The notes beneath the pieces were generated by a model. The model was given only the letters and a program-made list of their open reading frames with translations. It was not told where the DNA came from and did no database searches. Position numbers and translations under genes: made by a program. From NCBI GenBank assembly GCA_036278595.1, contig DASUKS010000116.1:1-44639 (forward strand): a stretch of DNA of 44,639 bases. Reading direction: 5' to 3'. Within the stretch, counting starts at the first letter, position 1. Each line of letters opens with the position of its first letter. Origin of the DNA: Dehalococcoidia bacterium (GTDB taxonomy: Bacteria; Chloroflexota; Dehalococcoidia; DSTF01; JACRBR01). Positions 1,302 to 36,792 of the stretch are shown here, one piece after another.

Positions 1302-2441
1302 GTGGAGATCCTCTCGGCGCCGCACTTGAACATCGACCAGCCGGCGATCAGCGCCATCATCGCGGTGGTCGTGCTCACGCTCATCATGACGTTCGCGGTG
1401 ATGTTCGCCACCTGGTACGAGCGCAAGGCAGTGGCCCGCATCCAGCAGCGGCTCGGGCCCATGCGCGTCGGGCCCTGGGGGTTGCTGCAGGCCTTTGCCG
1501 ACACGGTGAAGCTCGTCGCGAAGGAAGACCTGCGCCCCGCCACCGCCGACCCCATCGCGTTCGAGATCGCGGTCTTCGCGATCTTCGTGCCCGCCTTCTT
1601 GGCCCTCGTCGCCATCCCGTTCACCGAGGACTGGATCGTCAGCCCCCTGCCGCTGAGCCTGCTCTACCTGCTCGCCGTCTCGGGCCTGTCGTTCATCGGC
1701 TTCCTGATGGCGGGTTGGGGGAGCGACAGCAAGTACGCCCTCCTCGGCGGCATGCGCGCCGCCGCGCAGCTCATCTCGTACGAGATCCCGCTGATCCTCG
1801 CGATGATCGGCATCGTCATGGTGACTGGTTCGCTGAACGTCTCCGACATCATCATCTTCCAGGACAAGGTGCCGCTCATCGTCTGGCAGCCGCTGGGCTT
1901 CGTTATCTTCCTCACCGCCTCGATCGCCGAGCTCGAGCGTCAGCCGTTCGACATCCCGACGGGCGAGTCCGAAGTCGCCGGCGGCGTCTTCATCGAGTAC
2001 AGCGGCATCCGCTGGTCGATGTTCCAGTTGACGTCCTACGTGAACATGTACGTCTTCGCGCTGCTCGGGGCATTCGTCTTCCTCGGCGGCTGGGAGTGGC
2101 CGTTCGGGCGCGATGTCGGCTGGGCCTACCAGCTGCTGCTGACGTTGGTGAAGATGACGGCCTTCATCGTCTTCTATCTTTGGGCCCGCTCGACGTTCCC
2201 CCGCCTCCGCGTCGACCAGCTGATGTCGTATGCGTGGAAGGTTCTCATCCCGTTTGCCCTGCTGCAGATCTTCCTGAACGGTCTGATCATCGTCTATGGT
2301 TTGCCGGACGTGCTGCTGCTCGTCACCTCGGGCGCTGCCACCGTGGCACTCGGCCTGCTGGTCTACCAGCAGGTGCGCGTGGAGCCGCGGCAGCCGCTCG
2401 AGATGGTGAGCAACGCGGTGCCGGCGAGGAGTATGGTCTGA
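1302..2441 (+). CDS. nuoH: NADH-quinone oxidoreductase subunit H
   Basis: GTG start 7 nt after AGGAG (1291-1295). Contains YERKAVARIQQRLGPMRVGPWGLLQAFADTVKLVAKED and multiple TM segments, typical of NuoH/ND1. Confidence 0.95.
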   Translation: MEILSAPHLNIDQPAISAIIAVVVLTLIMTFAVMFATWYERKAVARIQQRLGPMRVGPWGLLQAFADTVKLVAKEDLRPATADPIAFEIAVFAIFVPAFLALVAIPFTEDWIVSPLPLSLLYLLAVSGLSFIGFLMAGWGSDSKYALLGGMRAAAQLISYEIPLILAMIGIVMVTGSLNVSDIIIFQDKVPLIVWQPLGFVIFLTASIAELERQPFDIPTGESEVAGGVFIEYSGIRWSMFQLTSYVNMYVFALLGAFVFLGGWEWPFGRDVGWAYQLLLTLVKMTAFIVFYLWARSTFPRLRVDQLMSYAWKVLIPFALLQIFLNGLIIVYGLPDVLLLVTSGAATVALGLLVYQQVRVEPRQPLEMVSNAVPARSMV

Positions 2442-9390: not shown

Positions 9391-9576
9391 TCCGAAATGC
9401 GCAGCCGTGATCGGCTTCGGCGCCGATGAGCGCCGCTGCCCATTGTCCAGCGTCGATGCGGTGGCAGCGCGTCGTTCTTCACCGGCTGGTAACATCTCCC
9501 CCGCGAGCCCTCGCGTACAATAGTTGAAATCCCCAATCGTGCGCGGCCGTGCTTCGCCGCGCCCCGAAGGTGTCCC

Positions 9577-10326
9577 GTGAGTCGTCGTCTCCTCATCGCG
9601 CTGCCGCTCGTTGTCGTCGCGCTCCTCGTCGTGGCGGCCGGTAGTTGGTGGTTCTTCATCCGCGAATCCAACAGCCTGGCGACGAGCGCGCCGGCGATCC
9701 CCACCGAGCTCGTGGCGTCGACACCGGGCGCCGGCTCGACGCCGGATGCCGACGCGACGTCGGGCAGCGGCGCCCCGCGCGACGACCTGACGTTCGCGAT
9801 CCTGCCCGACCGATCTGACGCCTCGTACTTCGTCGGCGAGAAGCTCGCCGCCCTCCCGCTGCCATCGACCGCGAAGGGCTCGACGAGCGCCATCGCCGGC
9901 GCGTTCCGCCTGACGCCCTCCGGTGATCTCGACCCGTCGCAGCCGGCGACCTTCACCGTGGACCTGACGCAGCTCCGAAGCGACAAGGACATGCGCGATG
10001 CCCGCGTGCAGTCGCAGGGCCTGCAGACGCAGACCTTCCCGAAGGCCACCTTCACCGCGACGAAGGTGACCGGATGGGACGCGAGCGCGCCCGCCGGCCA
10101 GGAGCAGGACGTGCAGCTCACCGGCACGCTCGACCTGCACGGTGTGCAGAAGGAAGTGACGTGGGACGTCAAGGCGCGCCACGACGGCAACGTCATCACC
10201 GCGCTCGCCACCACCAACTTCAAGTTCGCCGACTTCGGCATCCCGATCCTGAACATCGCCGGCTTCGTCTCCATCCAGGACAACGTCACGCTCCAGATCC
10301 AGGTCGTCGCACAGAGTTCACAGTAG
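9577..10326 (+). CDS. YceI-like (polyisoprenoid-binding) domain protein with N-terminal membrane anchor
   Basis: GTG start after GAAGG. N-terminal TM segment LLIALPLVVVALLVVAAGSWWFFI. The C-terminal half, with VDLTQLRSDKDMRDARV, TGTLDLHGVQKEVTWDV and NFKFADFGI, follows the YceI lipocalin-like pattern. Confidence 0.8.
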   Translation: MSRRLLIALPLVVVALLVVAAGSWWFFIRESNSLATSAPAIPTELVASTPGAGSTPDADATSGSGAPRDDLTFAILPDRSDASYFVGEKLAALPLPSTAKGSTSAIAGAFRLTPSGDLDPSQPATFTVDLTQLRSDKDMRDARVQSQGLQTQTFPKATFTATKVTGWDASAPAGQEQDVQLTGTLDLHGVQKEVTWDVKARHDGNVITALATTNFKFADFGIPILNIAGFVSIQDNVTLQIQVVAQSSQ

Positions 10327-10483
10327 AGAGCGCACGCAGCCCGTAGCTCAGTTCAGAGTGAGTGGTGAATAGTTCATAGTAGTTCGCCCGGCCTGAAGAA
10401 CTGCACGCCTGGCGCCGCGCAGGCGAACGAATCCGCATCACCAACGACCCCCGCTCAAAACGCCAACCTCCGTCCATCGCACG

Positions 10484-10535
10484 CTCCCCTCTCCAGTCGT
10501 TGGAGAGGGGCGGGGGTGAGGTAGCGCGCAGCGCC
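10484..10535 (+). repeat. REP-like hairpin repeat, copy 1
   Basis: CCCCTCTCCA gtcgt TGGAGAGGGG (10-bp perfect stem, 10486-10510) followed by CGGGGGTGAGGTAGCGCGCAGCGCC. Near-identical to copy 2 at 12596-12651. Confidence 0.7.
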
Positions 10536-10640
10536 GGCACCGGCGTTTGAACCGGCAACCGTAGTGCCACCCGCCCCTCTGTGCTCCATCCGCCCTCGTC
10601 GCACAATGGCCGCAAACATCACCGACAGGAGGTGCGAGCG

Positions 10641-10934
10641 ATGCCGCGAGGAGGCCGCCGGCCGGGCGCGGGCGCGCGCAGAGGGAACTTCAACGCCCTC
10701 AAGTCCGGTAACAATTCGGAGAGGATGGCGCTCGTCTACGCGCGCTTGCTCATCGAGCCCGACAGACTCACCGTCGGCCGCGCCCTCGCCGAAGCCGGCA
10801 TGATCAAGCCGCCCCCGTGGCAGTTCCAGCGCAGCGACATCCCTCGCCTCATCGAGTTCCTCTGGCTCTACTGGTTTGATCGTTCCGAAGAAAACAATCA
10901 GAAACAATCGAAAACGATCAAGGACAATCAATGA
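10641..10934 (+). CDS. Small hypothetical protein (97 aa) with Arg/Gly-rich N-terminus
   Basis: ATG lies 8 nt after AGGAGG (10627-10632). Begins MPRGGRRPGAGARRGNFNALKSGNNSERM. It ends in an Asn/Gln/Lys-rich tail encoded by AACAATC-type oligomer repeats. The coding call is plausible but rests only on the strong SD and the ORF. Confidence 0.5.
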   Translation: MPRGGRRPGAGARRGNFNALKSGNNSERMALVYARLLIEPDRLTVGRALAEAGMIKPPPWQFQRSDIPRLIEFLWLYWFDRSEENNQKQSKTIKDNQ

Positions 10935-11132
10935 TCCAGCACCGCGCCGCCCCGCGCAGACGCTCCGCCAGATTCAGATCCTGCCCGTCACGCCCATCGA
11001 TCGCCCCACGAAGCGAAAAAAACGCGAAAAACCGAATATCGATCAAAACGCCAAAACGCCGCTGTCCACTGTGAACTGTGAACTGCGCACTGTGAACTGC
11101 CCACCGTGAACTGTGAACTCGCCGTGAACTCG

Positions 11133-12461
11133 CTACAGCACCGCCAGGTAACGGTCCAGCTCGAAGTCGCTCACGTGCTTCCGGTACGCGTCCCACTCGA
11201 TCGTCTTGTTCCGGATCAGGCTCTCGAACACGTGCGCGCCGAGCGCCTCCCGCGCGAAGTCGCTCGCCCCGAACGCCTCGATCGCCTCCTTCAGGCTGCC
11301 CGGGAGCGTGTCGATGCCGCGCGCCCGGCGCTCGGCGTCGCTCAACTCGAACGCGTTCTCCTCCGTCGGCTGCGCCAGCGGGTACTCGTTCTCGATGCCC
11401 TTCAACCCCGCCGCGAGCATCAGCGCGAACGCGAGGTACGGGTTGCACGCCGCGTCCGGCGCCCGGTACTCGAGGCGCGTCGCGACTTCCTTGCCGGGCT
11501 TGTATTCCGGCACGCGGACCAGGTCCGACCGGTTGCGCCGCGCCCACGTGATGTACACCGGCGCTTCGTAGCCGGGCATCAGCCGCTTATAGCTGTTCAC
11601 CCACTGGTTCGTCACGAGCGTGAACTCGGGCGCGTGCCGCAGCAGCCCCGCCATGTACGATTTCGCGATGGCCGACAGGTGATACTGGTCTTCGGCGTCG
11701 AAGAAGGCGTTGCGGTCGCCGTTGAACAGCGACTGGTGCGTGTGCATCCCGGAGCCGTTCTCGTCCGCGAGCGGCTTCGGCATGAACGTGGCGTAGACGC
11801 CGGACGCGAGCGCGACCTCCTTCACGACGAGCCGGTACGTCATCGCGCTGTCGGCCATCGTCAAGGCATCGGTGTAGCGCAGATCGATCTCGTGCTGGCT
11901 CGGCGCGACCTCGTGGTGGCTGTACTCGACGCCGATGCCCATCTCCTCGAGCGTGAGCACGGTCTGGCGGCGCAGGTCGCTCGCGACGTCGAGCGGCGTC
12001 AGGTCGAAGTAGCCGCCCTTGTCGAGCCCCTCCGGCCGGTCGCTCGTCTTGAAGTAGAAGAACTCCAGCTCCGGACCGACGTAGAACGTGTAGCCGAGGT
12101 CGGCGGCGCGCTTGAGCTGCCGCTTCAGCACGAAGCGCGGGTCGCCCTCGAACGGCGTGCCGTCGGGCATCTGGATGTCGCAGAACATGCGGGCGACGCC
12201 GCGCTCGCGGGGGCGCCACGGCAGCACCTGGAACGTCGTCGGGTCCGGCATCGCGACCATGTCCGACTCGTCGATGCGCGCGAAGCCTTCGATGCTGGAG
12301 CCGTCGAAGCCCTGCCCCTCCTCCATCGCCTGCTCGAGCTCCTCGACGGTGATCGCGAAGCTCTTGAGCGAGCCGAGGATGTCCGTGAACCACAGCCGGA
12401 TGAACTTGATGTCCTGGTCACGGCAGGCCTGCAGTACGTAGAGTTTGGGGTCATCAATCAT
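11133..12461 (-). CDS. glnA: Glutamine synthetase, type I (GSI-alpha-like)
   Basis: 442 aa with FIRLWFTDILG, GFDGSSIEGF, MPKP..DENGSGMHTHQSLF and NRSDLVRVP, canonical GSI motifs. The position corresponding to the adenylylated Tyr of GSI-beta (NLYDL) appears to read NAFEL here, by eye. GGAG lies 8 nt before the ATG. Confidence 0.95.
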   Translation of the reverse strand: MIDDPKLYVLQACRDQDIKFIRLWFTDILGSLKSFAITVEELEQAMEEGQGFDGSSIEGFARIDESDMVAMPDPTTFQVLPWRPRERGVARMFCDIQMPDGTPFEGDPRFVLKRQLKRAADLGYTFYVGPELEFFYFKTSDRPEGLDKGGYFDLTPLDVASDLRRQTVLTLEEMGIGVEYSHHEVAPSQHEIDLRYTDALTMADSAMTYRLVVKEVALASGVYATFMPKPLADENGSGMHTHQSLFNGDRNAFFDAEDQYHLSAIAKSYMAGLLRHAPEFTLVTNQWVNSYKRLMPGYEAPVYITWARRNRSDLVRVPEYKPGKEVATRLEYRAPDAACNPYLAFALMLAAGLKGIENEYPLAQPTEENAFELSDAERRARGIDTLPGSLKEAIEAFGASDFAREALGAHVFESLIRNKTIEWDAYRKHVSDFELDRYLAVL

Positions 12462-29931: not shown

Positions 29932-30376
29932 GCTCTATCGAGAGCTGATCCTCGACCACTACAAGAACCCGCGGCACCACAAAACGCTGCCTTCGCCCGA
30001 CGTCACGGCCGAGGGCTACAACCCCGTCTGTGGCGACGAAGTGGCGATGCAGCTCGACTTCGAGGGCGACACGCTCGAGGACATCGGCCTGAACGGGCGC
30101 GGGTGCTCGATCAGCCAGGCATCCGGTTCGATGATGTCGGAGCTGGTGACGGGCAAGAGCATCGACGAGATCCGGCGGCTGAGCGCGGAGTTCACCGATA
30201 TGCTGCGCGAGCCGGACGCGCAGACGCCGGAGGATCTCGGCGACCTTGAGGCGCTGCAGGGCGTCGCGAAGTTCGCGGTGCGGGTGAAGTGTGCGACGTT
30301 GCCGTGGCGCACGCTGGAGGACGGGATCGCGCAGCACGAGCGCGGCGACGGCGACGTGCAGCACGAAGAGCTGTAG
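29900..30376 (+). CDS. sufU: SufU-type sulfur-transfer protein (IscU-like, Zn-dependent)
   Basis: Contains LYRELILDHYKNPRH, NPVCGDEV, GRGCSISQAS and VKCATLPW. ATG 29900 overlaps the sufS 3' end by 32 nt. An alternative GTG at 29921 would overlap by 11 nt. Confidence 0.9.
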   Translation: MPAQPEPVLDELYRELILDHYKNPRHHKTLPSPDVTAEGYNPVCGDEVAMQLDFEGDTLEDIGLNGRGCSISQASGSMMSELVTGKSIDEIRRLSAEFTDMLREPDAQTPEDLGDLEALQGVAKFAVRVKCATLPWRTLEDGIAQHERGDGDVQHEEL

Positions 30377-30488
30377 GCGGGGGAAGCGCCGGGAACCGAA
30401 AACTGCGGCAGCGCAACGAGCAGACACCAAGGGGCGCAGGAACGGCCGGGTGCCAAGTGAACAGACACCAGTACCAGGAGAGCAGGAC

Positions 30489-30809
30489 ATGAGTGTGCAG
30501 GGGTTGCTTTCAGACGAGTTGATCATGGAGCGGTTGAAGGATGTCTTCGACCCGGAGATCCACATGAGCATCGTCGAGCTCGGCCTCGTCTACGACGTGT
30601 CGGTCGAGGACGACGGCACGGTGGAGGTCCTCTACACGCTCACCAGCCCCGGTTGCCCGCTTGGGCCGATTATCGACGGACAGATCCAGGACGTGCTGGT
30701 GGACCTGCCGGGGGTGAAGCGCGTGAACGCGAAGCTCACGTTCTCGCCGCCGTGGGACCCGCGGACGATGGCGTCGGACGACGTGAAGATGCAGCTCGGG
30801 ATCTGGTAG
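30489..30809 (+). CDS. sufT: SufT / DUF59 (MIP18-family) Fe-S assembly protein
   Basis: Internal ATG of ORF 30291..30809. 106 aa with VFDPEIHMSIVELGLVY, TLTSPGCPL and WDP, typical of DUF59/PaaD-like proteins. Last gene of the suf cluster. Confidence 0.88.
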   Translation: MSVQGLLSDELIMERLKDVFDPEIHMSIVELGLVYDVSVEDDGTVEVLYTLTSPGCPLGPIIDGQIQDVLVDLPGVKRVNAKLTFSPPWDPRTMASDDVKMQLGIW

Positions 30810-30850
30810 GGCGCGCGCGGCCGCGAAGAACGCGCCGGGCCTGGTGTCGG

Positions 30851-30951
30851 GCAGACAGCAGATAGCAGACCGCAGAGCGGCGCTTCGCGCGAGGGGCGAC
30901 GAGCGCGCGGGCGAGGGGGACGTCGAACGCCGCGGCGCTTCGCCATCTGTG
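30851..30951. repeat. Short CAGA-oligomer element in the sufT / LuxR-A convergent spacer
   Basis: GCAGACAGCAGATAGCAGACCGCAGAG (30851-30877) faces the inverted CATCTGTG (30944-30951). An internal 12-nt direct repeat GCGGCGCTTCGC occurs at 30877 and 30932. Same oligomer style as the 8647-8887 element. Confidence 0.35.
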
Positions 30952-30962
30952 CGCCATCCCGG

Positions 30963-32369
30963 CTAGCCGGACGCGATGAATTCCTCGCCGCTCGGTACCT
31001 GCACAATTGGTGCGAGCAGGTCGCCGGAGTCGAGGTCGAGGATACGGATCTCGCCGGGCCGCAGCAGCGCGACGGTGTTCGCCGTGAGCGGCGTGACGTC
31101 TGACCAGGTGCCGTCGACCGGGATCTTCCTGAAGTGCGACGGGTCGCGCTCGTCGTACACGATGACCCCGTTGACCTGGCCGGCGCCGATCGAGGTCGAG
31201 TAGGGGAGGAGGCGGTCGCCGCCGGACATGAGTTGCGCGTCGGTCACCGAGATGCGGTCGTCGCCGCCGAACGATGCCTCCGGATGGGTCGCCTCGCTGG
31301 TGCGCACGACTGCGTCCATGAACACGACGTAGTACTTGCCCGCGGCGTCGCGTCCCGCGTCGACTTCGCGCACGGTGCGCGGGCCACTTGGTCCGTCTTC
31401 GAGCGGCAGCTTTGCGACGGGCGACAAGACGTCGGTCGTGACGGTGCTGAGCTTTACCGTCTCCGATCCCTCGATCGCGCACATCGCAAGCACACCGCCG
31501 TCACTCGTCTTGAGCAACGACGGATAGGTGCAGGCGGACGGGAGTGGCAGAGTTCTCACCAGCACGCGTTGTTCGAGGTCGATCACGCCGACTGAGGCGT
31601 GCTGGCACATGACTCCATCACCCACACAGCCGGGTTCTGCCGGCACGATCCGGCCGTAGAAGAGGTAGCGCCCGTCGTCGCTGAGCTCGATCGATGGCGC
31701 GTACAGCGTCTCGACCGCGCGGTCGGGCATCGCGATGGTGCTCGGCGCCGCAGAGAGGTCATCGAGGTCGTAGATGCGGAGCGTCGGCGAAGTTACGGCC
31801 GGCCCGGGCCCGAACGCCTGCGCGACGAGCAACTGATGCGCGGACTGGCGTACGGCGACCCACGGCCGATAGCCGGCCTGTATCTCACCGAGCGTCGCGA
31901 GCGTCGATGGATCGAGCACCGTGATCTCACCCGAGTCCTGATTGATGGCGACGAGCGCGGCGGCATCACGTGCGGCATCGGCGATTGTGCGCGGCGGGCT
32001 GTCCGCGCGGCCGCTCGTGCGGAGCACACCCCATGCGAGCAGCGCGATGCCAATCGCCGCGAGCGCGAGCATGCTGCCGGCGGCCACGCGCGCGGGTGCG
32101 CCGAAGCCTTCGACGCGCCGGAGCAGGCCGAGCGGCGCGACAAGCCATGTGCGGCGCTCGGCCGTCGGCTGCCATGCGGCGGCTTCCTCTCGCGATGAGA
32201 CGCCGAGCTTGCCGAGGATCTGCGAGACGTGGAAGCGCGCCGTGGTGAACGATATCCCGAGCGCCTGCGCGATCTCGTCGTTCGTACGATGATCACGAAG
32301 CAGCGCGAGGACCTCCCATTCGCGTGGTGTCAGGATATCGGGGTGCTTCGGGCGTCCGCGTCCTCGCAT
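30963..32369 (-). CDS. Membrane-tethered LuxR/GerE-HTH regulator with propeller-like ectodomain, paralogue A
   Basis: 468 aa. HTH LTPREWEVLALLRDHRTNDEIAQALGISFTTARFHVSQILGKLGV. Single TM segment MLALAAIGIALLAWGVL. C-terminal 350 aa has repeated beta-strand motifs (SDDGRYLFY, TSDGGVLAM). Confidence 0.85.
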   Translation of the reverse strand: MRGRGRPKHPDILTPREWEVLALLRDHRTNDEIAQALGISFTTARFHVSQILGKLGVSSREEAAAWQPTAERRTWLVAPLGLLRRVEGFGAPARVAAGSMLALAAIGIALLAWGVLRTSGRADSPPRTIADAARDAAALVAINQDSGEITVLDPSTLATLGEIQAGYRPWVAVRQSAHQLLVAQAFGPGPAVTSPTLRIYDLDDLSAAPSTIAMPDRAVETLYAPSIELSDDGRYLFYGRIVPAEPGCVGDGVMCQHASVGVIDLEQRVLVRTLPLPSACTYPSLLKTSDGGVLAMCAIEGSETVKLSTVTTDVLSPVAKLPLEDGPSGPRTVREVDAGRDAAGKYYVVFMDAVVRTSEATHPEASFGGDDRISVTDAQLMSGGDRLLPYSTSIGAGQVNGVIVYDERDPSHFRKIPVDGTWSDVTPLTANTVALLRPGEIRILDLDSGDLLAPIVQVPSGEEFIASG

Positions 32370-32405
32370 GGACTCGATCGTACGCCAACGGTGGCGGAAT
32401 TACAC
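32370..32405 (-). promoter_or_regulatory. Candidate leaderless promoter of paralogue A
   Basis: Minus strand reads GTGTAA, 17 nt, TACGAT, 7 nt, ATG, with no SD. The same geometry and hexamers occur upstream of paralogue C. Confidence 0.4.
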
Positions 32406-32452
32406 CGGACGGTCGCCGAGCAGATACGTCACGACTTGAGCGCGATCGGCAG

Positions 32453-33943
32453 CTAGCGCTGAGCGCTGGTGGGCGCGGCGCTCGACGACACGATGACCAT
32501 GCTGCCGTCCGGCGTCCATTCGGCGTGCGAGCAGAAGCCGAACGCCGTGTTGAAGTCGCCGGCAGCCGGACGGATCGATGCGAGCTCGGTCCAGGTGAAG
32601 CCCGGCGCCTTGTTGGTGTTCGGTGTCGAGGGCGGCGTCTGCATGTCGAACAGCGCGCACCGCTGGCCGTTGTCCGCCCCGGTATACGCGATGGCGTAGC
32701 GTCCATTCGGTGAGATCGACACGACCGGACAGCACGATGAGCGGACGATCGATGGGACCGGCGCCGGTTGCCCGCCGAACAGCGGGACGAAGGTCTGGCT
32801 CGTATTGAACTGCGGGTCGACGTGACCGGCGCTGAACGTGACGAGCAGGCGGTTGGCGCCGGCCCACTGCGCCGACGACAGCTCGCCCTTGTAGCCGCTC
32901 CAGACGCGGTCGAACGACGCGCCCGGCACGGCGTACACCTCGAAGTCCGGCGGGTTATCGCAGCTCGCGACGGTGGGGGCGCACGGCGCCCGCCGCTCGA
33001 CCAGCAGGTACTTGCCGTCCGGCGACCACGGGTTCGGCGCCAGATCGATCAGGCTCTGGTCGTTGAAGTCCTGCTCGACCGCGGTGCCGCCTCCCGCGAA
33101 TCCGATCAGCCGTCCGACGGCGTGGTTGACGTAGATGACGCGCCCCGGATGGACGTTACCGCCCTTGTCGTATGTACCGAACGCGAGCCAGGCGATGGCG
33201 AGCCCGTCCGGGGCGAAGGCGAGGTGGCGGGCTCCGGTGAGAAACGTGCCTCCGCCGCCGTCAGGAAGCGCCGACACGATGTACTGATCGTCGGTGCGGC
33301 CGACGAGGACCGCCGAGCCATCGGGCACGGGCACGACGTCGCTCGTGAGGTTGCCCTGCGTCATCGGCGACTCGACGCGCTGTCCATCGAGACCGTACAC
33401 GCCGTAGCTTGCACCATCACCGCCCGCAAGAAACGTCTCGCCGGCCTTGAACCAGCGTGCATCCGGTGCGTCCCAGTCCACGGGCAGGCGCCGTGCGACG
33501 TGCGCGTTCAGGTCGAATAGCATCACGCTCGGGTGCGTGGTCTTCGCGTCTTCGACGCGCCAGGCGCCCGCGCCCGACGCGCCGCCGTCCGTCGTGAACA
33601 CGCCCCACGCGAGCAACGCGACGCCGACCGCGGCGAGCGCGACGACGCCGCCCGCGGCCACGCGCGCGGGCGCGCCGAAGCCTTCGATGCGGCGCAGCAG
33701 CCCGAGCGGCGCGAGGAGCCACGAGCGGCGTTCGGGCGGCGGCTGCCACGCGGCGGCGTCTTCCCGCGAGGTGACGTCGAGGCGCGCGAACAGCTCGGAG
33801 ATGTGGAACTTCACGCCGGCAAGGCTGAGGCCCAGGCGGGCGGCGATCTCGTCGTTGGTCAGCCCCTCGCGGACAAGATCCAGCACCTCCCACTGGCGTG
33901 GCGTCAGGATGTCGGGATGGCGTCGTCTGCCGCGCGATTTCAT
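32453..33943 (-). CDS. Membrane-tethered LuxR/GerE-HTH regulator with PD40/TolB-like ectodomain, paralogue B
   Basis: 496 aa. HTH LTPRQWEVLDLVREGLTNDEIAARLGLSLAGVKFHISELFARL. TM segment VVALAAVGVALLAWGVF. Ectodomain carries WSPDGKYLLV, SISPNGRYAIAY and EWTPDGSMVIV. Confidence 0.85.
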   Translation of the reverse strand: MKSRGRRRHPDILTPRQWEVLDLVREGLTNDEIAARLGLSLAGVKFHISELFARLDVTSREDAAAWQPPPERRSWLLAPLGLLRRIEGFGAPARVAAGGVVALAAVGVALLAWGVFTTDGGASGAGAWRVEDAKTTHPSVMLFDLNAHVARRLPVDWDAPDARWFKAGETFLAGGDGASYGVYGLDGQRVESPMTQGNLTSDVVPVPDGSAVLVGRTDDQYIVSALPDGGGGTFLTGARHLAFAPDGLAIAWLAFGTYDKGGNVHPGRVIYVNHAVGRLIGFAGGGTAVEQDFNDQSLIDLAPNPWSPDGKYLLVERRAPCAPTVASCDNPPDFEVYAVPGASFDRVWSGYKGELSSAQWAGANRLLVTFSAGHVDPQFNTSQTFVPLFGGQPAPVPSIVRSSCCPVVSISPNGRYAIAYTGADNGQRCALFDMQTPPSTPNTNKAPGFTWTELASIRPAAGDFNTAFGFCSHAEWTPDGSMVIVSSSAAPTSAQR

Positions 33944-34052
33944 GTGGCCTCGCGGCCTATCGTATCGCCTGCCGCGCAGCTATTGACCTAGCCGATACCT
34001 GTGCAATTCCTTCAGGTTTCAGGTGTGGCTGCCGGACGGAAGGCGGCGGCGA

Positions 34053-35960
34053 TCAATTTCCGCCGAACGAGAGCACGACTTCGCTGCTGTCCGCCGTCCA
34101 GTCGGCCATGTACGAAGCGGGATAGGCCAGCACCTGCACAGTGGCGCTCGTCGACAGGCTGACCAGTTGATTTCCGTTGACCGAGAACTCGCCGTCGGGT
34201 GAGATGCTGCCCAGCGGCGAGCGCGCCGGGTTGGAAACGAATGCTCTCAGTGCGGAGTTCAGGCTCCCGGGCGCGGCGGCACCGCCCGGGATGTCGATCA
34301 GCAGGCCTCTCGCGGGCGACGGCGTACCGTGTTCGTCGGTTCGCTCGACCTCGCTCAGCGCGAGGCGTCGCGCGCCCACCCACGCTGCGGCGTTTCCCGG
34401 CGCAGCGACCAAGTGTCCGGTCGAGAACACCGGAGCAGTGCCCGCGCTGGCCCCGGCGGCGAACACTTCGAACCGCAGCGAGCCGAACGGCGGGCAACTG
34501 GTGTTCGGTGCAGGGCCGCAGGAGGGGGGCAGCGTGCCGGTCGTCACGAGCAGGTAGTTCCCGTCGGAAGACCACGATAGCGGTTCGATATCGGACGCCC
34601 CTGTGCCGGCCGTGTTCTGCACGAGTACATAGCGTCCATCGGTAACCGGCGTCGTTGCGATGACGAGCGACTGCCGGCCGTTGTTCGTGTTGATGTACGC
34701 CGCGTGCTTGCCATCGGGCGAGAACGACGGCTGGCCGTTCACGCCGGGCGGCTGCGGGAAGTCGTGATCCTGGCCGGTCGCGACGTCGCGCACGAGGAAG
34801 CTGTAGATTCCGGCGGAAGGGATCTCGCGATCAACGAGGATCGTCCGTCCAGCGGGCGCCGGCGCCACGGCGCCGCCGATCGTACCGTCCTCCGGCGTCT
34901 TGAGGTCGATGGGCTGCAGCGCGGTTCCGTCGATATCGAAGATGACGAACGACTTGAGGTCGGTATCGTAGGCGACGAACGTCTTGCCGTCCTCGACCCA
35001 TTGCGCCTGCATGATGCGGTCCGCGGTGGGGATGATGCGGCAGTCGCCGGTCGCGCGGTCGACGATGACCGCGGCCATCGCCGGGCCGCCGCCGGCGGGC
35101 TGCGGCGGCGCACACGGCGGCCGCGGGCCACCGGCGAGCGCGGGGACATCCGGACCGCCGATGCGGACGGTCTGCGTCGAGAAGTCGCTGTCGAAACGTA
35201 CCTGCAGCCGCCACTCGCCGGCGGATGGCAGCTCGAAGCCGGTCACGAGGTAGACGCCGGGCAAGTCGACGCCGGGGCAGGCCGCCCCGGGACAGGTGAC
35301 GCACGTCACCGGTGCGGACAGGTGCTCGCCCGTGTCGACGTTGCCAGCCTGTACGACGTCCGGAAACTGCTGGACGGAAGGGAAGCCGGCGACGCAGCTG
35401 GTGGGCTCCGTGACGCGGAAGACGATTTTCAGGTTGCGGTCGCACAGTTGACCCGACGTGAGGTAGTCCTGCGAGAGGCCGAATCGCCAGAAGATCGGTG
35501 CCTCGCCGAGCTCGCGGGTCGACTCCCCGGCGCTCGCCGGTGCGCACGCGACCGGCGTGTTCGACACCGCCGCGCCGGCGTCCTGCGCGTCGGACCGCGG
35601 GCTGCCGGTCGTGAAGACGCCCCACGCGAGGAGGGCGATGCCGACCGCCGCGAGCGCGACGACGCCGCCGGCGGCCACGCGCGCAGGCGCGCCGACGCCT
35701 TCAATGCGGCGCAGCAGCCCGAGCGGCGCGAGGAGCCACGTGCGGCGTTCGGGCGGGGGCTGCCACGCGGCCGCCTCCTCGCGCGAGGTGACGGCGAGCT
35801 TGCCGAGGATCTCCGACACATGGAAGCGGGCGGTGGCCAGCGAGACGCCGAGCGCCGCCGCGATCTGCTCGTTGGTGCGCCGCTCGCGCAGGAGCGCCAG
35901 CACCTCCCACTCGCGCGGGGTGAGGATATCGGGGTGCTTCGGGCGGCCGCGGCCTGGCAT
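34053..35960 (-). CDS. Membrane-tethered LuxR/GerE-HTH regulator with Cys-rich plus PD40/TolB-like ectodomain, paralogue C
   Basis: 635 aa. HTH LTPREWEVLALLRERRTNEQIAAALGVSLATARFHVSEILGKL. TM segment VVALAAVGIALLAWGVF. A Cys-rich insert of about 170 aa is followed by FSPDGKHAAYI, WSSDGNYLLV and ISPDGEFSV. Confidence 0.85.
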   Translation of the reverse strand: MPGRGRPKHPDILTPREWEVLALLRERRTNEQIAAALGVSLATARFHVSEILGKLAVTSREEAAAWQPPPERRTWLLAPLGLLRRIEGVGAPARVAAGGVVALAAVGIALLAWGVFTTGSPRSDAQDAGAAVSNTPVACAPASAGESTRELGEAPIFWRFGLSQDYLTSGQLCDRNLKIVFRVTEPTSCVAGFPSVQQFPDVVQAGNVDTGEHLSAPVTCVTCPGAACPGVDLPGVYLVTGFELPSAGEWRLQVRFDSDFSTQTVRIGGPDVPALAGGPRPPCAPPQPAGGGPAMAAVIVDRATGDCRIIPTADRIMQAQWVEDGKTFVAYDTDLKSFVIFDIDGTALQPIDLKTPEDGTIGGAVAPAPAGRTILVDREIPSAGIYSFLVRDVATGQDHDFPQPPGVNGQPSFSPDGKHAAYINTNNGRQSLVIATTPVTDGRYVLVQNTAGTGASDIEPLSWSSDGNYLLVTTGTLPPSCGPAPNTSCPPFGSLRFEVFAAGASAGTAPVFSTGHLVAAPGNAAAWVGARRLALSEVERTDEHGTPSPARGLLIDIPGGAAAPGSLNSALRAFVSNPARSPLGSISPDGEFSVNGNQLVSLSTSATVQVLAYPASYMADWTADSSEVVLSFGGN

Positions 35961-35996
35961 GGGCCCGATCGTACGCGAAAGATCGCCGAATTACAC
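35961..35996 (-). promoter_or_regulatory. Candidate leaderless promoter of paralogue C
   Basis: Minus strand reads GTGTAA, 17 nt, TACGAT, 7 nt, ATG, with no SD. Conserved with 32370-32405. Confidence 0.4.
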
Positions 35997-36069
35997 TAGC
36001 CGCGGGCCGGAGGGGCGAGGAGGTAGGAGCGAGGAGCGTGAGGGGGCGTCAGATTCGGCCCCCGGCGCG

Positions 36070-36792
36070 CTACGAGCGCGGGTCCGAGGACATCATCGAC
36101 GCCGGCTCCCGCTCTTCGAGGTGGCCGTCTTCGAGCCAGACGATGCGGTCCGCGTACTTCAGCACGCGGTGGTCGTGGCTCACCATCAGCACCGCTGTGC
36201 CCATGTCGTGCGCGATCATCTGGAGCATCGACATCACCTCCGCGCCGCGGATGCCATCGAGACTCGCCGTCGGCTCATCGGCGAGGATGACGGCCGGGTT
36301 GTTGACGACCGCGCGGGCGATGGCGACGCGCTGACGTTCGCCGCCGCTCAGCGTCTTGATGCGCGCGTCCTTGCGGTGCGACAGGCCGAGGATCGAGAGC
36401 AGCTCCGTCGCGCGGGCGCTGGCTGACCTGCCGGGCATGCGGGCCTTGCGCAGCACGAGCTCGAGGTTCTGCAGCACCGTGAGCGACGACAGCAGGTTGA
36501 ACTCCTGGAAGACGAAGCCGATCGTGCGGAGCCGCACCTCCGCGAGCCGGCGCTCGCTCAGCGACGAAAGCGGCGTGCCGGCGACGATCACCTCACCCGA
36601 GGTGGGCTTGCGCAGCGCGCCGGCAATCGTCAGGAGCGTCGATTTGCCCGCGCCGGACGGCCCCATGATGATGACGACCTGGCGCGCCGGGATCTGGAGC
36701 GAGACGGACTTCATCGCGTGCGTCGGGTTGTCCTTCGCGCCGAACGTCTGGCTGACGTCGACGAGCTCGAGGACGGCGTCGCTGGTCGCCAT
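36070..36792 (-). CDS. ABC transporter ATP-binding protein (MacB/LolD-type)
   Basis: Walker A GPSGAGKST, Q-loop FVFQEFNLL, signature LSGGERQRVAIARA, Walker B ILADEPTASLD, H-loop VSHD. Starts 3 nt after the permease stop. Confidence 0.93.
   Translation of the reverse strand: MATSDAVLELVDVSQTFGAKDNPTHAMKSVSLQIPARQVVIIMGPSGAGKSTLLTIAGALRKPTSGEVIVAGTPLSSLSERRLAEVRLRTIGFVFQEFNLLSSLTVLQNLELVLRKARMPGRSASARATELLSILGLSHRKDARIKTLSGGERQRVAIARAVVNNPAVILADEPTASLDGIRGAEVMSMLQMIAHDMGTAVLMVSHDHRVLKYADRIVWLEDGHLEEREPASMMSSDPRS

What the first reader, a model, noticed from the sequence alone, without database searches (positions are those of the whole stretch)
35607..35783. The juxtamembrane linker and TM helix are better conserved among the paralogues than the DNA-binding domain
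By eye, the segment AAAWQP(P/T)(P/A)ERR(T/S)WL(L/V)APLGLLRR(I/V)EG(F/V)GAPARVAAG plus the TM helix is nearly invariant in all three proteins. It lies at aa ~60-118, encoded at about 32016-32192, 33590-33766 and 35607-35783. In contrast, the HTH of paralogue B differs from A and C at roughly a third of positions. Conservation extends to the nucleotide level. The supplied plus-strand shadow ORFs 31942..32292, 33447..33986 and 35557..36426 all translate to near-identical peptides (PAATRAGAP.PS.RRS.PSGA.SH.RRS...CHAAASSR). A linker/TM under stronger constraint than the output domain points to one of three explanations. It could be a shared interaction partner, a regulated-proteolysis (site-1/site-2 protease-type) release site, or ongoing gene conversion between the three direct repeats.
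Basis: seen in the sequence. Interest (0 to 1): 0.6.

Follow-up and report, generated by a model that had tools for sequence, protein, structure and literature searches.

The report
Gene conversion between tandem membrane regulators
Three neighbouring genes for membrane-anchored LuxR-type regulators in a soil Dehalococcoidia genome share an unusually similar tether and membrane helix because DNA was copied between the gene copies, not because that segment is specially constrained, so the pattern is ordinary.

Summary
The coordinates are exact and the pattern is real, but it is carried by gene B. Linker/TM (aa 60-118) beats the HTH in A-B (46/59 vs 33/59, p=0.018) and B-C (55/59 vs 37/59, p=1e-4). 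It does not in A-C (48/59 vs 47/59).

Across species the reverse holds. Orthologues (assigned by ectodomain) are 61-78% identical in the HTH but 35-65% in the linker. Of 1,176 family pairs, only B-C and A-B have linker/TM above HTH.

B is a chimera:
- its promoter and HTH belong to another paralogue lineage (its promoter aligns with the copy on contig C189);
- codons ~55-118 are C-type (92% nt identity, silent sites unsaturated);
- its ectodomain is its own.

Breakpoints fall at codons 56-65 (max-chi2 p about 0.001). Segment trees disagree. A tandem pair in a relative shows clear 5' conversion (dS 0, then 0.15, then above 1).

A shared partner or a regulated-proteolysis site is not needed and not supported, though neither is excluded. 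The proteins are uncharacterised single-pass transmembrane transcription regulators. This is an ordinary mechanism in a little-known family.

The parts
30963..32369 (-). Gene A (468 aa): GerE/LuxR HTH + tether + one TM helix + ectodomain with no detectable family
   Evidence: ORF. Pfam GerE E=1.8e-14 at aa 12-65. Ectodomain is 48-49% identical to the distal domain of the syntenic same-genus gene L022. No PDB sequence match.
32453..33943 (-). Gene B (496 aa): chimeric copy made of a C189-type promoter and HTH, a C-type linker/TM, and a B-type ectodomain
   Evidence: ORF. Pfam GerE E=1.1e-14 and weak PD40. Ectodomain orthologues are P0002 (54%) and L032 (44-46%). Chimera evidence.
34053..35960 (-). 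Gene C (635 aa): GerE/LuxR HTH + tether + TM + proximal domain + TolB-like beta-propeller
   Evidence: ORF. Pfam GerE E=2.8e-13 and weak PD40. TolB 7mx5 E=3.4e-8. Full-length orthologue L021 at 51%.
35760..35933 (-). GerE-type four-helix DNA-binding domain of C (aa 10-67). Equivalent in A: 32169-32342; in B: 33743-33916
   Evidence: Pfam. AF2 helices 15-25, 30-37, 41-55 and 60-64 with pLDDT 90-97. Family column conservation 0.77.
35670..35759 (-). Cytoplasmic tether of C (aa 68-97). Equivalent in A: 32079-32168; in B: 33653-33742
   Evidence: Net charge +3. AF2 pLDDT 44-52. Family conservation 0.39. 83-93% identical among A, B and C, but 35-65% between orthologues.
35607..35669 (-). Transmembrane helix of C (aa 98-118). 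Equivalent in A: 32016-32078; in B: 33590-33652
   Evidence: Kyte-Doolittle maximum 2.1-2.3 at aa 95-113. AF2 helix 98-117. The outer end LLAWGV is moderately conserved family-wide.
33587..33781 (-). Inferred conversion tract in B (gene nt ~163-357), C-type sequence
   Evidence: B-C differences fall from 59 in nt 1-167 to 17 in nt 168-354. Max-chi2 breakpoint at nt 195, p=0.001. Window identity 0.83-1.0 from nt 166 to 360, then about 0.45. Identical codons at identical residues 40/52 against a 0.52 baseline, p=0.0002.
35604..35798 (-). The matching stretch in C (the likely donor), covering the finding's coordinates 35607-35783
   Evidence: Same analyses as for the tract in B. A's linker/TM is also of this type, and A-C are related over the whole module, so this sequence is native to the A/C module.
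35961..36000 (-). Promoter of C: box TAGTGTAATTC (35988-35998), 14 nt, TACGAT (35968-35973), 7 nt, ATG. This is leaderless geometry
   Evidence: Sequence. Exact box hit. The box is present upstream of 57/72 family genes at a fixed distance.
32370..32409 (-). Promoter of A: cgGTGTAATTC (32397-32407), 14 nt, TACGAT (32377-32382), 7 nt, ATG. Homologous to C's promoter
   Evidence: A-C upstream local alignment of 31 nt, score 37. Identity 0.77-0.83 from -29 to +15.
33955..34001 (-). Promoter of B: degenerate box TAGGTCAATAG and GATACGAT, with a 15-nt leader. Homologous to the promoter of the unlinked paralogue on contig C189, not to those of A or C
   Evidence: Local alignment of B against C189 upstream DNA spans about 47 nt, score 38. 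Scores against A and C are 15 and 14.
35557..36426 (+). Plus-strand 'shadow ORF' (also 31942-32292 and 33447-33986): antisense artefacts, not genes
   Evidence: No Pfam match. GC2 > GC1. Third positions coincide with the sense gene's third positions. This one crosses C's start and enters the ABC ATPase gene.

Best explanation
What the genes are. A, B and C encode single-pass transmembrane transcription regulators. Each has a cytoplasmic N-terminal GerE/LuxR-type HTH, a basic flexible tether, one TM helix and a divergent extracytoplasmic sensor domain (a TolB-like propeller in C).

Why the tether and TM look alike. The near-identity among the three copies is a product of recombination between paralogues (gene conversion, or exchange of the 5' module). 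It is not the result of special functional constraint.

Gene B is a three-part chimera:
- its promoter and HTH (up to about codon 55-65) belong to a different paralogue lineage, related to the unlinked copies on contigs C189 and C104;
- about 190 bp (gene nt ~163-357, window 33587-33781) were copied from a C-type gene, at least as recently as the split from the congeneric species;
- its ectodomain has its own orthologues elsewhere.

A and C share the whole 5' cassette, from promoter position -37 to the end of the TM at +350, at a uniform ~82% nucleotide identity. This comes from an older duplication or conversion that silent sites can no longer date.

Homology ends at the end of the TM, so exchange tracts end there too. 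This is why the conserved block stops at aa ~118.

Shown versus inferred. Shown: the mosaic structure, its breakpoints, its absence in orthologues, and recurrent 5' conversion in the family. Inferred: the direction (C to B), the membrane topology and the regulatory function.
For: 1. Paralogues compared with orthologues. Orthology was assigned from the ectodomains: A~L022, B~P0002/L032, C~L021/L025 (44-54% identity), against 26% or less among A, B and C. Orthologue pairs are 0.61-0.78 identical in the HTH, 0.35-0.65 in the tether and 0.33-0.62 in the TM. A, B and C are 0.83-0.93 in the tether and 0.67-0.95 in the TM.

2. Family norm. In 1,176 pairs from more than 20 genomes, mean identity is 0.65 for the HTH and 0.32 for linker+TM. 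Only B-C (+0.23) and A-B (+0.15) have linker above HTH. Column conservation is HTH 0.77, tether 0.39, TM 0.47.

3. Breakpoint. The odd-one-out counts for A/B/C are 19/43/7 in codons 1-59 and 24/6/9 in codons 60-118 (chi2 p=1.6e-5). Max-chi2 breakpoints are at nt 167 and 195, permutation p=0.0005 and 0.001.

4. Trees. On the HTH, A+C are sisters (96/87) inside a clade with L021, L022, L025 and P0002 (93/90), and B lies elsewhere. On the linker/TM, {A,B,C} form a clade (94/90) with B on a zero-length branch. Imposing the HTH topology is rejected, p-AU 0.032.

5. Silent sites. The baseline for identical codons at identical residues is 0.52 +/- 0.10. B-C codons 60-118 give 40/52 = 0.77 (p=0.0002, top 0.5% of pairs). 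B-C HTH gives 0.61 (not significant). SufS and SufD between this genome and its congener G003 give 0.72.

6. Non-coding evidence. B's promoter aligns with that of own-genome paralogue C189 (score 38) and not with A or C (15, 14). B's HTH DNA is closest to C104 and C189 (0.72, 0.70).

7. Recurrence. A G028 tandem pair has dS 0 in codons 1-60, 0.15 in 61-120 and 1.0-1.4 in the ectodomain. P0002 couples a B-type ectodomain to a C-type promoter and an A/C-type HTH.

8. A-C uniformity. A-C have dN about 0.11 and dN/dS about 0.16 in both segments.

9. Structure. AF2 gives a confident GerE fold, a low-confidence tether (pLDDT 44-52) and a TM helix at 98-117.
Against: - The AU test on the 64-column HTH alone does not reject {A,B,C} monophyly (p=0.135).
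- The topology switch restricted to silent sites of codons invariant in all three is only suggestive (p=0.09).
- B's HTH sits on a long terminal branch (0.47 against a median of 0.18). So it has also evolved fast, or its true donor is unsampled. The genome is about 85% complete.
- For A-C, silent sites are at saturation (0.58 vs 0.52). Conversion cannot be separated from an old duplication. Keeping 81% identity in the tether/TM at that depth needs purifying selection (dN/dS about 0.16).
- The direction of transfer is inferred by parsimony only.
Confidence: 0.78

Rival explanations
1. No recombination inside the 5' module. A, B and C share one history, ((B,C),A). B's HTH and promoter simply diverged fast after duplication (new DNA specificity or relaxed selection), while the linker/TM kept evolving at the normal rate.
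For: - The ratio of A-odd to C-odd sites is the same in both halves (19:7 and 24:9), as one tree with a long B branch would predict.
- The AU test on the HTH does not reject ABC monophyly (p=0.135).
- B's HTH terminal branch is long (0.47).
- The silent-site pattern switch is weak (p=0.09).
Against: - B's non-coding promoter is homologous to that of another paralogue lineage (C189), not a decayed A/C promoter.
- B's HTH carries family-consensus states (G27, L28, R36, K45) where A and C share derived states with genes in other genomes.
- B-C silent identity is 0.77 in codons 60-118 but at background (0.61) in the HTH.
- A recombination point at the TM/ectodomain border is needed in any case, because B's and C's ectodomains each have separate orthologues.
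Confidence: 0.09
2. Selection for a common tether/TM. The three co-resident regulators contact the same membrane partner, or form hetero-oligomers through this segment. Selection therefore keeps it, or fixes converted copies of it, identical within the genome.
For: - A-C keep 81% identity in codons 60-118 although silent sites are saturated (dN/dS about 0.16).
- At matched HTH identity (0.8-0.9), within-genome pairs have a more similar linker/TM than between-genome pairs (median 0.74 vs 0.43, p=0.004; without the trio p=0.011).
- A sparse family-wide motif exists: W66, P68, W75, APL, R84, LLAWGV.
Against: - Other co-resident paralogues (C189, C104) share only 26-42% of the tether with A, B and C.
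- The tether is predicted to be flexible (pLDDT 44-52).
- dN/dS is no lower than in the HTH.
- The within-genome excess is what recent duplication or conversion produces on its own, and the pairs are not independent.
- No candidate partner gene is conserved next to the family.
Confidence: 0.07
3. The conserved segment is a regulated-intramembrane-proteolysis site. A site-1 cut followed by an M50 site-2 protease releases the HTH from the membrane.
For: - The genome has four M50 (site-2 protease family) loci. One lies about 1 kb from the family paralogue on contig C189, separated from it by a dehydrogenase gene.
- The TM is rich in Gly and Ala, which destabilise helices.
- Some transmembrane regulators such as TcpP are known to be cleaved this way (PMC10269533).
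Against: - M50 proteases are found in all 14 control genomes, so their presence says nothing.
- The segment's sequence is not conserved between orthologues, so a specific recognition site is not indicated.
- No protease gene is linked to A, B or C, or to their orthologues.
- The hypothesis does not explain why the similarity holds only within the genome.
Confidence: 0.04
4. Assembly artefact. The metagenome assembler joined reads from different copies or strains across the repeated 5' modules and so created a false chimera.
For: The genome is a fragmented MAG (293 contigs, 85% complete). The copies are 80-92% identical over about 190-390 bp.
Against: - The longest exact run shared by B and C is 37 nt, and by A and C 23 nt.
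- Two crossovers within about 190 bp would be needed.
- The three genes lie inside a 44.6-kb contig with intact frames.
- Comparable mosaics occur in independent assemblies (G028, P0002).
Confidence: 0.02

Closest known systems
Transmembrane transcription regulators (TTRs) such as ToxR, TcpP, CadC and VtrA, surveyed in PMC10269533
   Same: One polypeptide with a cytoplasmic N-terminal DNA-binding domain, a single TM helix and an extracytoplasmic sensor domain. Lineage-specific expansion is reported for the class, which is also seen here (up to 24 copies in G039).
   Different: The DNA-binding domain is a GerE/LuxR-type four-helix HTH, not an OmpR/PhoB-type winged helix. The sensor domains are TolB-like propellers or unknown folds. 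No co-component gene (ToxS, TcpH or VtrC type) is adjacent. GerE and LuxR are not mentioned in that paper's main text.
Concerted evolution by gene conversion among tandem bacterial paralogues (for example PE_PGRS pairs in mycobacteria, PMC1762029; M. tuberculosis repeats, PMC12046097)
   Same: Paralogues are more alike than orthologues over a bounded tract. There is a mosaic structure with statistically supported breakpoints. Tracts are tens to hundreds of bp long.
   Different: Here the exchanged unit is a regulatory 5' cassette (promoter, HTH, tether, TM) joined to non-homologous sensor domains. One copy received only the internal tether/TM part.
LuxR/FixJ/GerE C-terminal effector domain family (Pfam PF00196)
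   Same: The four-helix HTH is recognised at E about 1e-14 and predicted with high confidence.
   Different: The domain is N-terminal and membrane-tethered, not C-terminal to a receiver or autoinducer-binding domain.
Membrane-anchored anti-sigma factors released by site-1/site-2 proteolysis (RseA, RsiW type)
   Same: Same topology: cytoplasmic N-terminal domain, one TM helix, extracytoplasmic sensor.
   Different: The cytoplasmic domain is a DNA-binding HTH with weak resemblance to sigma-70 region 4, not an anti-sigma domain. No evidence of cleavage. The segment is not conserved between species.

Membership tests
GerE/LuxR-type HTH (PF00196) | Profile match above the curated threshold | tested here: met
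   A, B and C score 49.7-54.2 bits against a cut-off of 23.5, at aa 12-65.
GerE/LuxR-type HTH (PF00196) | Four-helix bundle fold | tested here: met
   AF2 helices at 15-25, 30-37, 41-55 and 60-64 with pLDDT 90-97.
Transmembrane transcription regulators (TTR class, PMC10269533) | Predicted DNA-binding domain plus at least one predicted TM region in one protein | tested here: met
   GerE domain. Hydrophobic helix at aa 95-118 with KD(19) of 2.1-2.3, and basic residues on the N-terminal side. AF2 helix 98-117. Membrane insertion itself is predicted, not shown.
ToxR-like receptors | OmpR/PhoB-type winged-helix DNA-binding domain | tested here: not met
   No Trans_reg_C match. The domain is GerE-type.
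ToxR-like receptors | Adjacent co-component gene (ToxS, TcpH or VtrC type) | tested here: not met
   The neighbours are an ABC ATPase, a MacB-type permease, a patatin-like protein and suf genes. Orthologous loci share only the suf genes.
TolB/PD40 beta-propeller sensor domain | Sequence match to TolB propeller blades | tested here: inconclusive
   C matches TolB 7mx5 at E=3.4e-8, and Pfam PD40 is just above the cut-off for B and C. A matches nothing. B has no PDB match. No ectodomain was folded.
Gene conversion / concerted evolution | The tract is more similar between paralogues in one genome than between orthologues | tested here: met
   Tether 0.83-0.93 against 0.35-0.65, and TM 0.67-0.95 against 0.33-0.62.
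Gene conversion / concerted evolution | Statistically supported breakpoints or phylogenetic incongruence along the gene | tested here: met
   Max-chi2 p=0.0005-0.001. Site-pattern chi2 p=1.6e-5. AU p=0.032 on the linker/TM. But AU p=0.135 on the HTH.
Gene conversion / concerted evolution | Reduced synonymous divergence inside the tract | tested here: met
   For B-C: 40/52 identical codons against a 0.52 baseline, p=0.0002, and NG86 dS 0.28 against 0.73-0.80 in the HTH. Not met for A-C, which is saturated in both segments.
Regulated intramembrane proteolysis substrates | Demonstrated or conserved site-1/site-2 cleavage determinants and a dedicated protease | not testable with these tools
   M50 proteases are present but are universal. 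The segment is not conserved across species. Cleavage needs experiment.

The most novel reading that the evidence does not exclude
The 5' cassette (box-type leaderless promoter, HTH, tether and TM) may be an exchangeable module. Recurrent conversion would keep several different extracytoplasmic sensors in one cell wired to a common output, and possibly to a common membrane partner or hetero-oligomer. The strictly conserved TAGTGTAATTC box would then be the operator recognised by the family's own HTH. On this reading, B's co-varying box (TAGGTCAATAG) and divergent HTH would define a second specificity class that was grafted onto a C-type tether/TM.
Probability: 0.15. Interest if true: 0.55.

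Novelty: new member of a known kind. Interest (0 to 1): 0.27.

Why it matters
The result removes a tempting but wrong inference: that the tether and TM of these regulators are a specially constrained interaction or cleavage site. It also shows how within-genome similarity can mimic functional conservation. Comparison with orthologues is the decisive control.

The positive outcome is modest:
- It documents a widespread, uncharacterised family of GerE-type transmembrane regulators in Dehalococcoidia.
- The family evolves by shuffling a 5' regulatory cassette against varied sensor domains.
- Family members carry a highly conserved leaderless promoter box, which gives a concrete handle for testing autoregulation.

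Tried and rejected
- NG86, LWL85 and YN00 dS by segment. These were informative for B-C, but values of about 0.6-1.2 proved to be at or near the plateau for this GC3-rich genome. I replaced them with the fraction of identical codons at identical residues, calibrated on 2,211 family pairs. My early reading that A-C is 'as old as the genus split' was dropped, because A-C silent sites are simply saturated.
- AU test of {A,B,C} monophyly on the HTH: not significant (p=0.135).
- Silent-site-only pattern switch: p=0.09.
- GENECONV-like longest concordant run: only marginal (A-C p=0.014, B-C p=0.045).
- Site-2 protease search: M50 is present at four loci but also in 14/14 control genomes, so it does not discriminate. 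The C189 co-location is separated by an unrelated dehydrogenase gene.
- Rfam scan of 30800-36200 at E<=0.1: nothing, so there is no known RNA element to explain nucleotide conservation.
- PDB sequence search for the A and B ectodomains: nothing useful.
- Synteny search for a conserved tandem trio in relatives: none. G003 and G008 have a single gene at the suf-adjacent site.
Full report
**1. What is there.** The window is contig C116 of a fragmented Dehalococcoidia (Chloroflexota) MAG: 2.89 Mb, 293 contigs, about 85% complete.

Three co-directional minus-strand genes lie between a patatin/MacB-type ABC operon and the convergent suf operon:
- A: 30963-32369, 468 aa
- B: 32453-33943, 496 aa
- C: 34053-35960, 635 aa

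Each protein has the same plan:
- an N-terminal GerE/LuxR HTH (Pfam E about 1e-14, aa 12-65);
- a basic tether (aa 68-97, net charge +3);
- one hydrophobic helix (aa 95-118);
- an ectodomain unrelated to those of the other two copies.

C's ectodomain contains a TolB-like propeller (PDB 7mx5, E=3.4e-8). B has marginal PD40 signals. A matches nothing.

AlphaFold2 on the N-terminal 125 residues gives a confident four-helix GerE fold (pLDDT 90-97), a low-confidence tether (44-52) and a TM helix at 98-117.

These are single-pass transmembrane transcription regulators. That class is known (PMC10269533), but GerE and LuxR do not appear in that survey's main text.

**2. The observation.** Residues 1-118 align without gaps, and aa 60-118 map exactly to the stated coordinates.

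| Pair | Identity, aa 1-59 | Identity, aa 60-118 | Fisher p |
|---|---|---|---|
| A-B | 33/59 | 46/59 | 0.018 |
| B-C | 37/59 | 55/59 | 1e-4 |
| A-C | 47/59 | 48/59 | 1.0 |
| Invariant in all three | 31/59 | 45/59 | 0.012 |

 The pattern is therefore real but comes from B alone.

Two details are overstated in the finding. The TM helix has only 14/21 positions shared by all three. And aa 60-67 are the last helix of the GerE domain, not linker.

The plus-strand 'shadow ORFs' are antisense read-throughs. They sit in the register whose third codon position coincides with the GC-rich third position of the real genes. They have GC2 > GC1 and no Pfam match, and one crosses a gene boundary.

**3. The decisive control: orthologues.** The family is expanded across the order. 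It is present in 28 of 41 relatives, with up to 24 copies in one genome. The own genome has further copies on C189, C104 and C47.

Ectodomains assign orthology:
- A with L022 (G003, same genus, syntenic next to sufT)
- B with P0002 and L032
- C with L021 and L025

These pairs are 44-54% identical, against 26% or less among A, B and C.

| Comparison | HTH | Tether | TM |
|---|---|---|---|
| Between orthologues | 0.61-0.78 | 0.35-0.65 | 0.33-0.62 |
| Among A, B, C | 0.56-0.80 | 0.83-0.93 | 0.67-0.95 |

Column conservation over 58 family members is HTH 0.77, aa 60-67 0.72, tether 0.39, TM 0.47. The only shared features in the tether/TM are a sparse motif: W66, P68, W75, APL, R84 and LLAWGV.

Among 1,176 pairs of family members, mean identity is 0.65 for the HTH and 0.32 for linker+TM. 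B-C and A-B are the only pairs with linker/TM above HTH. A-C (0.81/0.75) resembles ordinary young paralogue pairs elsewhere, such as G028 L073-L076 (0.83/0.77).

The segment is therefore not conserved across species.

**4. B is a chimera.**
- Nucleotide profile. A-C identity is uniform (about 0.8-0.9) from -37 to +350, then collapses to about 0.4. B-C identity is low to moderate up to +165, is 0.83-1.0 from +166 to +360, then collapses.
- Site patterns. They switch from B as the odd one out (A/B/C = 19/43/7, codons 1-59) to A as the odd one out (24/6/9, codons 60-118), chi2 p=1.6e-5.
- Breakpoints. Max-chi2 places them at nt 167 and 195, permutation p=0.0005 and 0.001.
- HTH tree. A+C are sisters (96/87) inside a clade with L021, L022, L025 and P0002 (93/90). 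B is placed elsewhere, on a long branch.
- Linker/TM tree. {A,B,C} form a clade (94/90) with B on a zero-length branch. Forcing the HTH topology is rejected, p-AU 0.032.
- Caveat. The reciprocal AU test on the 64-column HTH is not significant (p=0.135).

A single-tree model with a fast-evolving B HTH is not excluded by the three sequences alone. The A-odd to C-odd ratio is the same in both halves, and the silent-site switch gives only p=0.09.

What tips the balance is non-coding and outgroup evidence:
- B's promoter (degenerate box, GATACGAT, 15-nt leader) aligns over about 47 nt with the promoter of the unlinked paralogue on C189. The score is 38, equal to the A-C promoter alignment at 37. 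It does not align with A or C (15, 14).
- B's HTH DNA is closest to C104 and C189 (0.72, 0.70).

**5. Timing.** NG86 dS values plateau in this GC3-rich genome. I therefore used the fraction of identical codons at identical residues, calibrated on 2,211 family pairs. The baseline is 0.52 +/- 0.10.

| Comparison | Identical-codon fraction | Significance vs baseline |
|---|---|---|
| B-C, codons 60-118 | 0.77 | p=0.0002, top 0.5% |
| A-B, codons 60-118 | 0.67 | p=0.03 |
| B-C, HTH | 0.61 | not significant |
| A-C, both segments | 0.58 | not significant |
| SufS and SufD, this genome vs congener G003 | 0.72 | calibration |

The B-C tract is thus at least as young as the genus-level split. The A-C module is too old to date. 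It may be an old tandem duplication or an old whole-module conversion. Its dN/dS is about 0.16 in the HTH and in the linker/TM alike, which means ordinary purifying selection on both.

**6. The process is recurrent in the family.**
- A tandem pair in G028 has 100% nucleotide identity over codons 1-60 (dS 0), dS 0.15 over 61-120 and dS 1.0-1.4 in the ectodomain, with a near-identical proximal promoter.
- P0002 joins a B-type ectodomain to a promoter almost identical to C's and to an A/C-type HTH.
- The syntenic G003 gene L022 combines a C-like proximal ectodomain with an A-like distal one.
- At matched HTH identity (0.8-0.9), co-resident pairs have a more similar linker/TM than cross-genome pairs (median 0.74 vs 0.43, p=0.004; without the trio p=0.011). 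This is the expected footprint of 5' homogenisation, although the pairs are not independent.

Homology ends at the end of the TM, which explains why tracts, and the conserved block, stop near aa 118.

**7. Most parsimonious history.** One internal conversion tract of about 190 bp (gene nt ~163-357; B 33587-33781, C 35604-35798) passed from a C-type donor into B. This explains both junctions with a single event. The alternative is that a C-type B later received a foreign promoter and HTH, which needs an unsampled donor. The direction is inferred, not shown.

**8. Rivals.**
- Shared partner or hetero-oligomer constraint. It is not needed. It is weakened because C189 and C104, in the same cell, share only 26-42% of the tether, and because the tether is predicted to be flexible. 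It could still explain why converted tracts persist.
- Regulated proteolysis. It has no positive support. M50 proteases are present, but they are universal. The C189 co-location is interrupted by an unrelated gene. The segment is not conserved between species.
- Assembly chimera. It is unlikely, because the longest exact B-C run is 37 nt.
- Structured RNA. No Rfam family matches the region.

**9. Verdict.** Of the three interpretations offered, gene conversion is supported. The phenomenon is a known one (concerted evolution and mosaicism among tandem paralogues), seen here in an uncharacterised family of a known class of regulators. Interest is modest. The by-products worth recording are the family-wide promoter box and the modular shuffling of sensor domains.

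Noticed in passing
window 35988-35998 (C) and 32397-32407 (A); loci L021-L114 upstream of family genes: A strongly conserved box, TAGTGTAATTC, lies upstream of 57 of 72 distinct family genes from more than 20 genomes (about 0.3 expected by chance). In 54 of them it ends 26-31 nt before the start codon. It is followed about 14 nt later by a TAnnnT hexamer about 7 nt before the ATG, which is leaderless geometry. In the own genome the box (<=1 mismatch) occurs only upstream of family members. It could be an autoregulatory operator or a dedicated -35 element.
   Followed up: partly
G000 contigs C185:10914-11141 and C58:3255-3446; short ORFs in L036-L038, L040, L046 and others: Most relatives also carry one short (about 110-190 aa), apparently soluble HTH-only member of the family, with the same promoter box (variant TAGTGTAAATC) but no TM helix. 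In the own genome this copy sits at the ends of two contigs (C185 and C58). Their sequences are identical through the HTH and then diverge, which suggests a frameshift, a strain variant or an assembly break.
   Followed up: no
L065 (G003:C1) 9494-11311 and L068 (G008:C1) 9157 onward, versus window 30291-32369: The family gene convergent to sufT is syntenic in the same-genus genome G003 and in G008, but there it is a single gene. G003's gene combines a C-like proximal ectodomain with an A-like distal domain. This suggests that the window's trio arose by local duplication plus domain loss or shuffling.
   Followed up: partly
G000 contig C189: 2-655 (-), 659-1411 (-), ~1400-2167 (+): A family paralogue, a short-chain dehydrogenase and a small M50 (site-2 protease family, HExxH ... 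NLLPIHPLDG) gene lie within about 2 kb. This is probably coincidental, but it is the only protease linkage seen.
   Followed up: partly
G039 contigs C51, C61, C71: One relative has 24 family copies, many clustered within a few kb on three contigs. This is an extreme lineage-specific expansion of these transmembrane regulators.
   Followed up: no
P0032: One family member fuses the same HTH-tether-TM module to a signal-peptidase-like (Peptidase_S26, PF10502) ectodomain. This shows how varied the attached extracytoplasmic domains can be.
   Followed up: no
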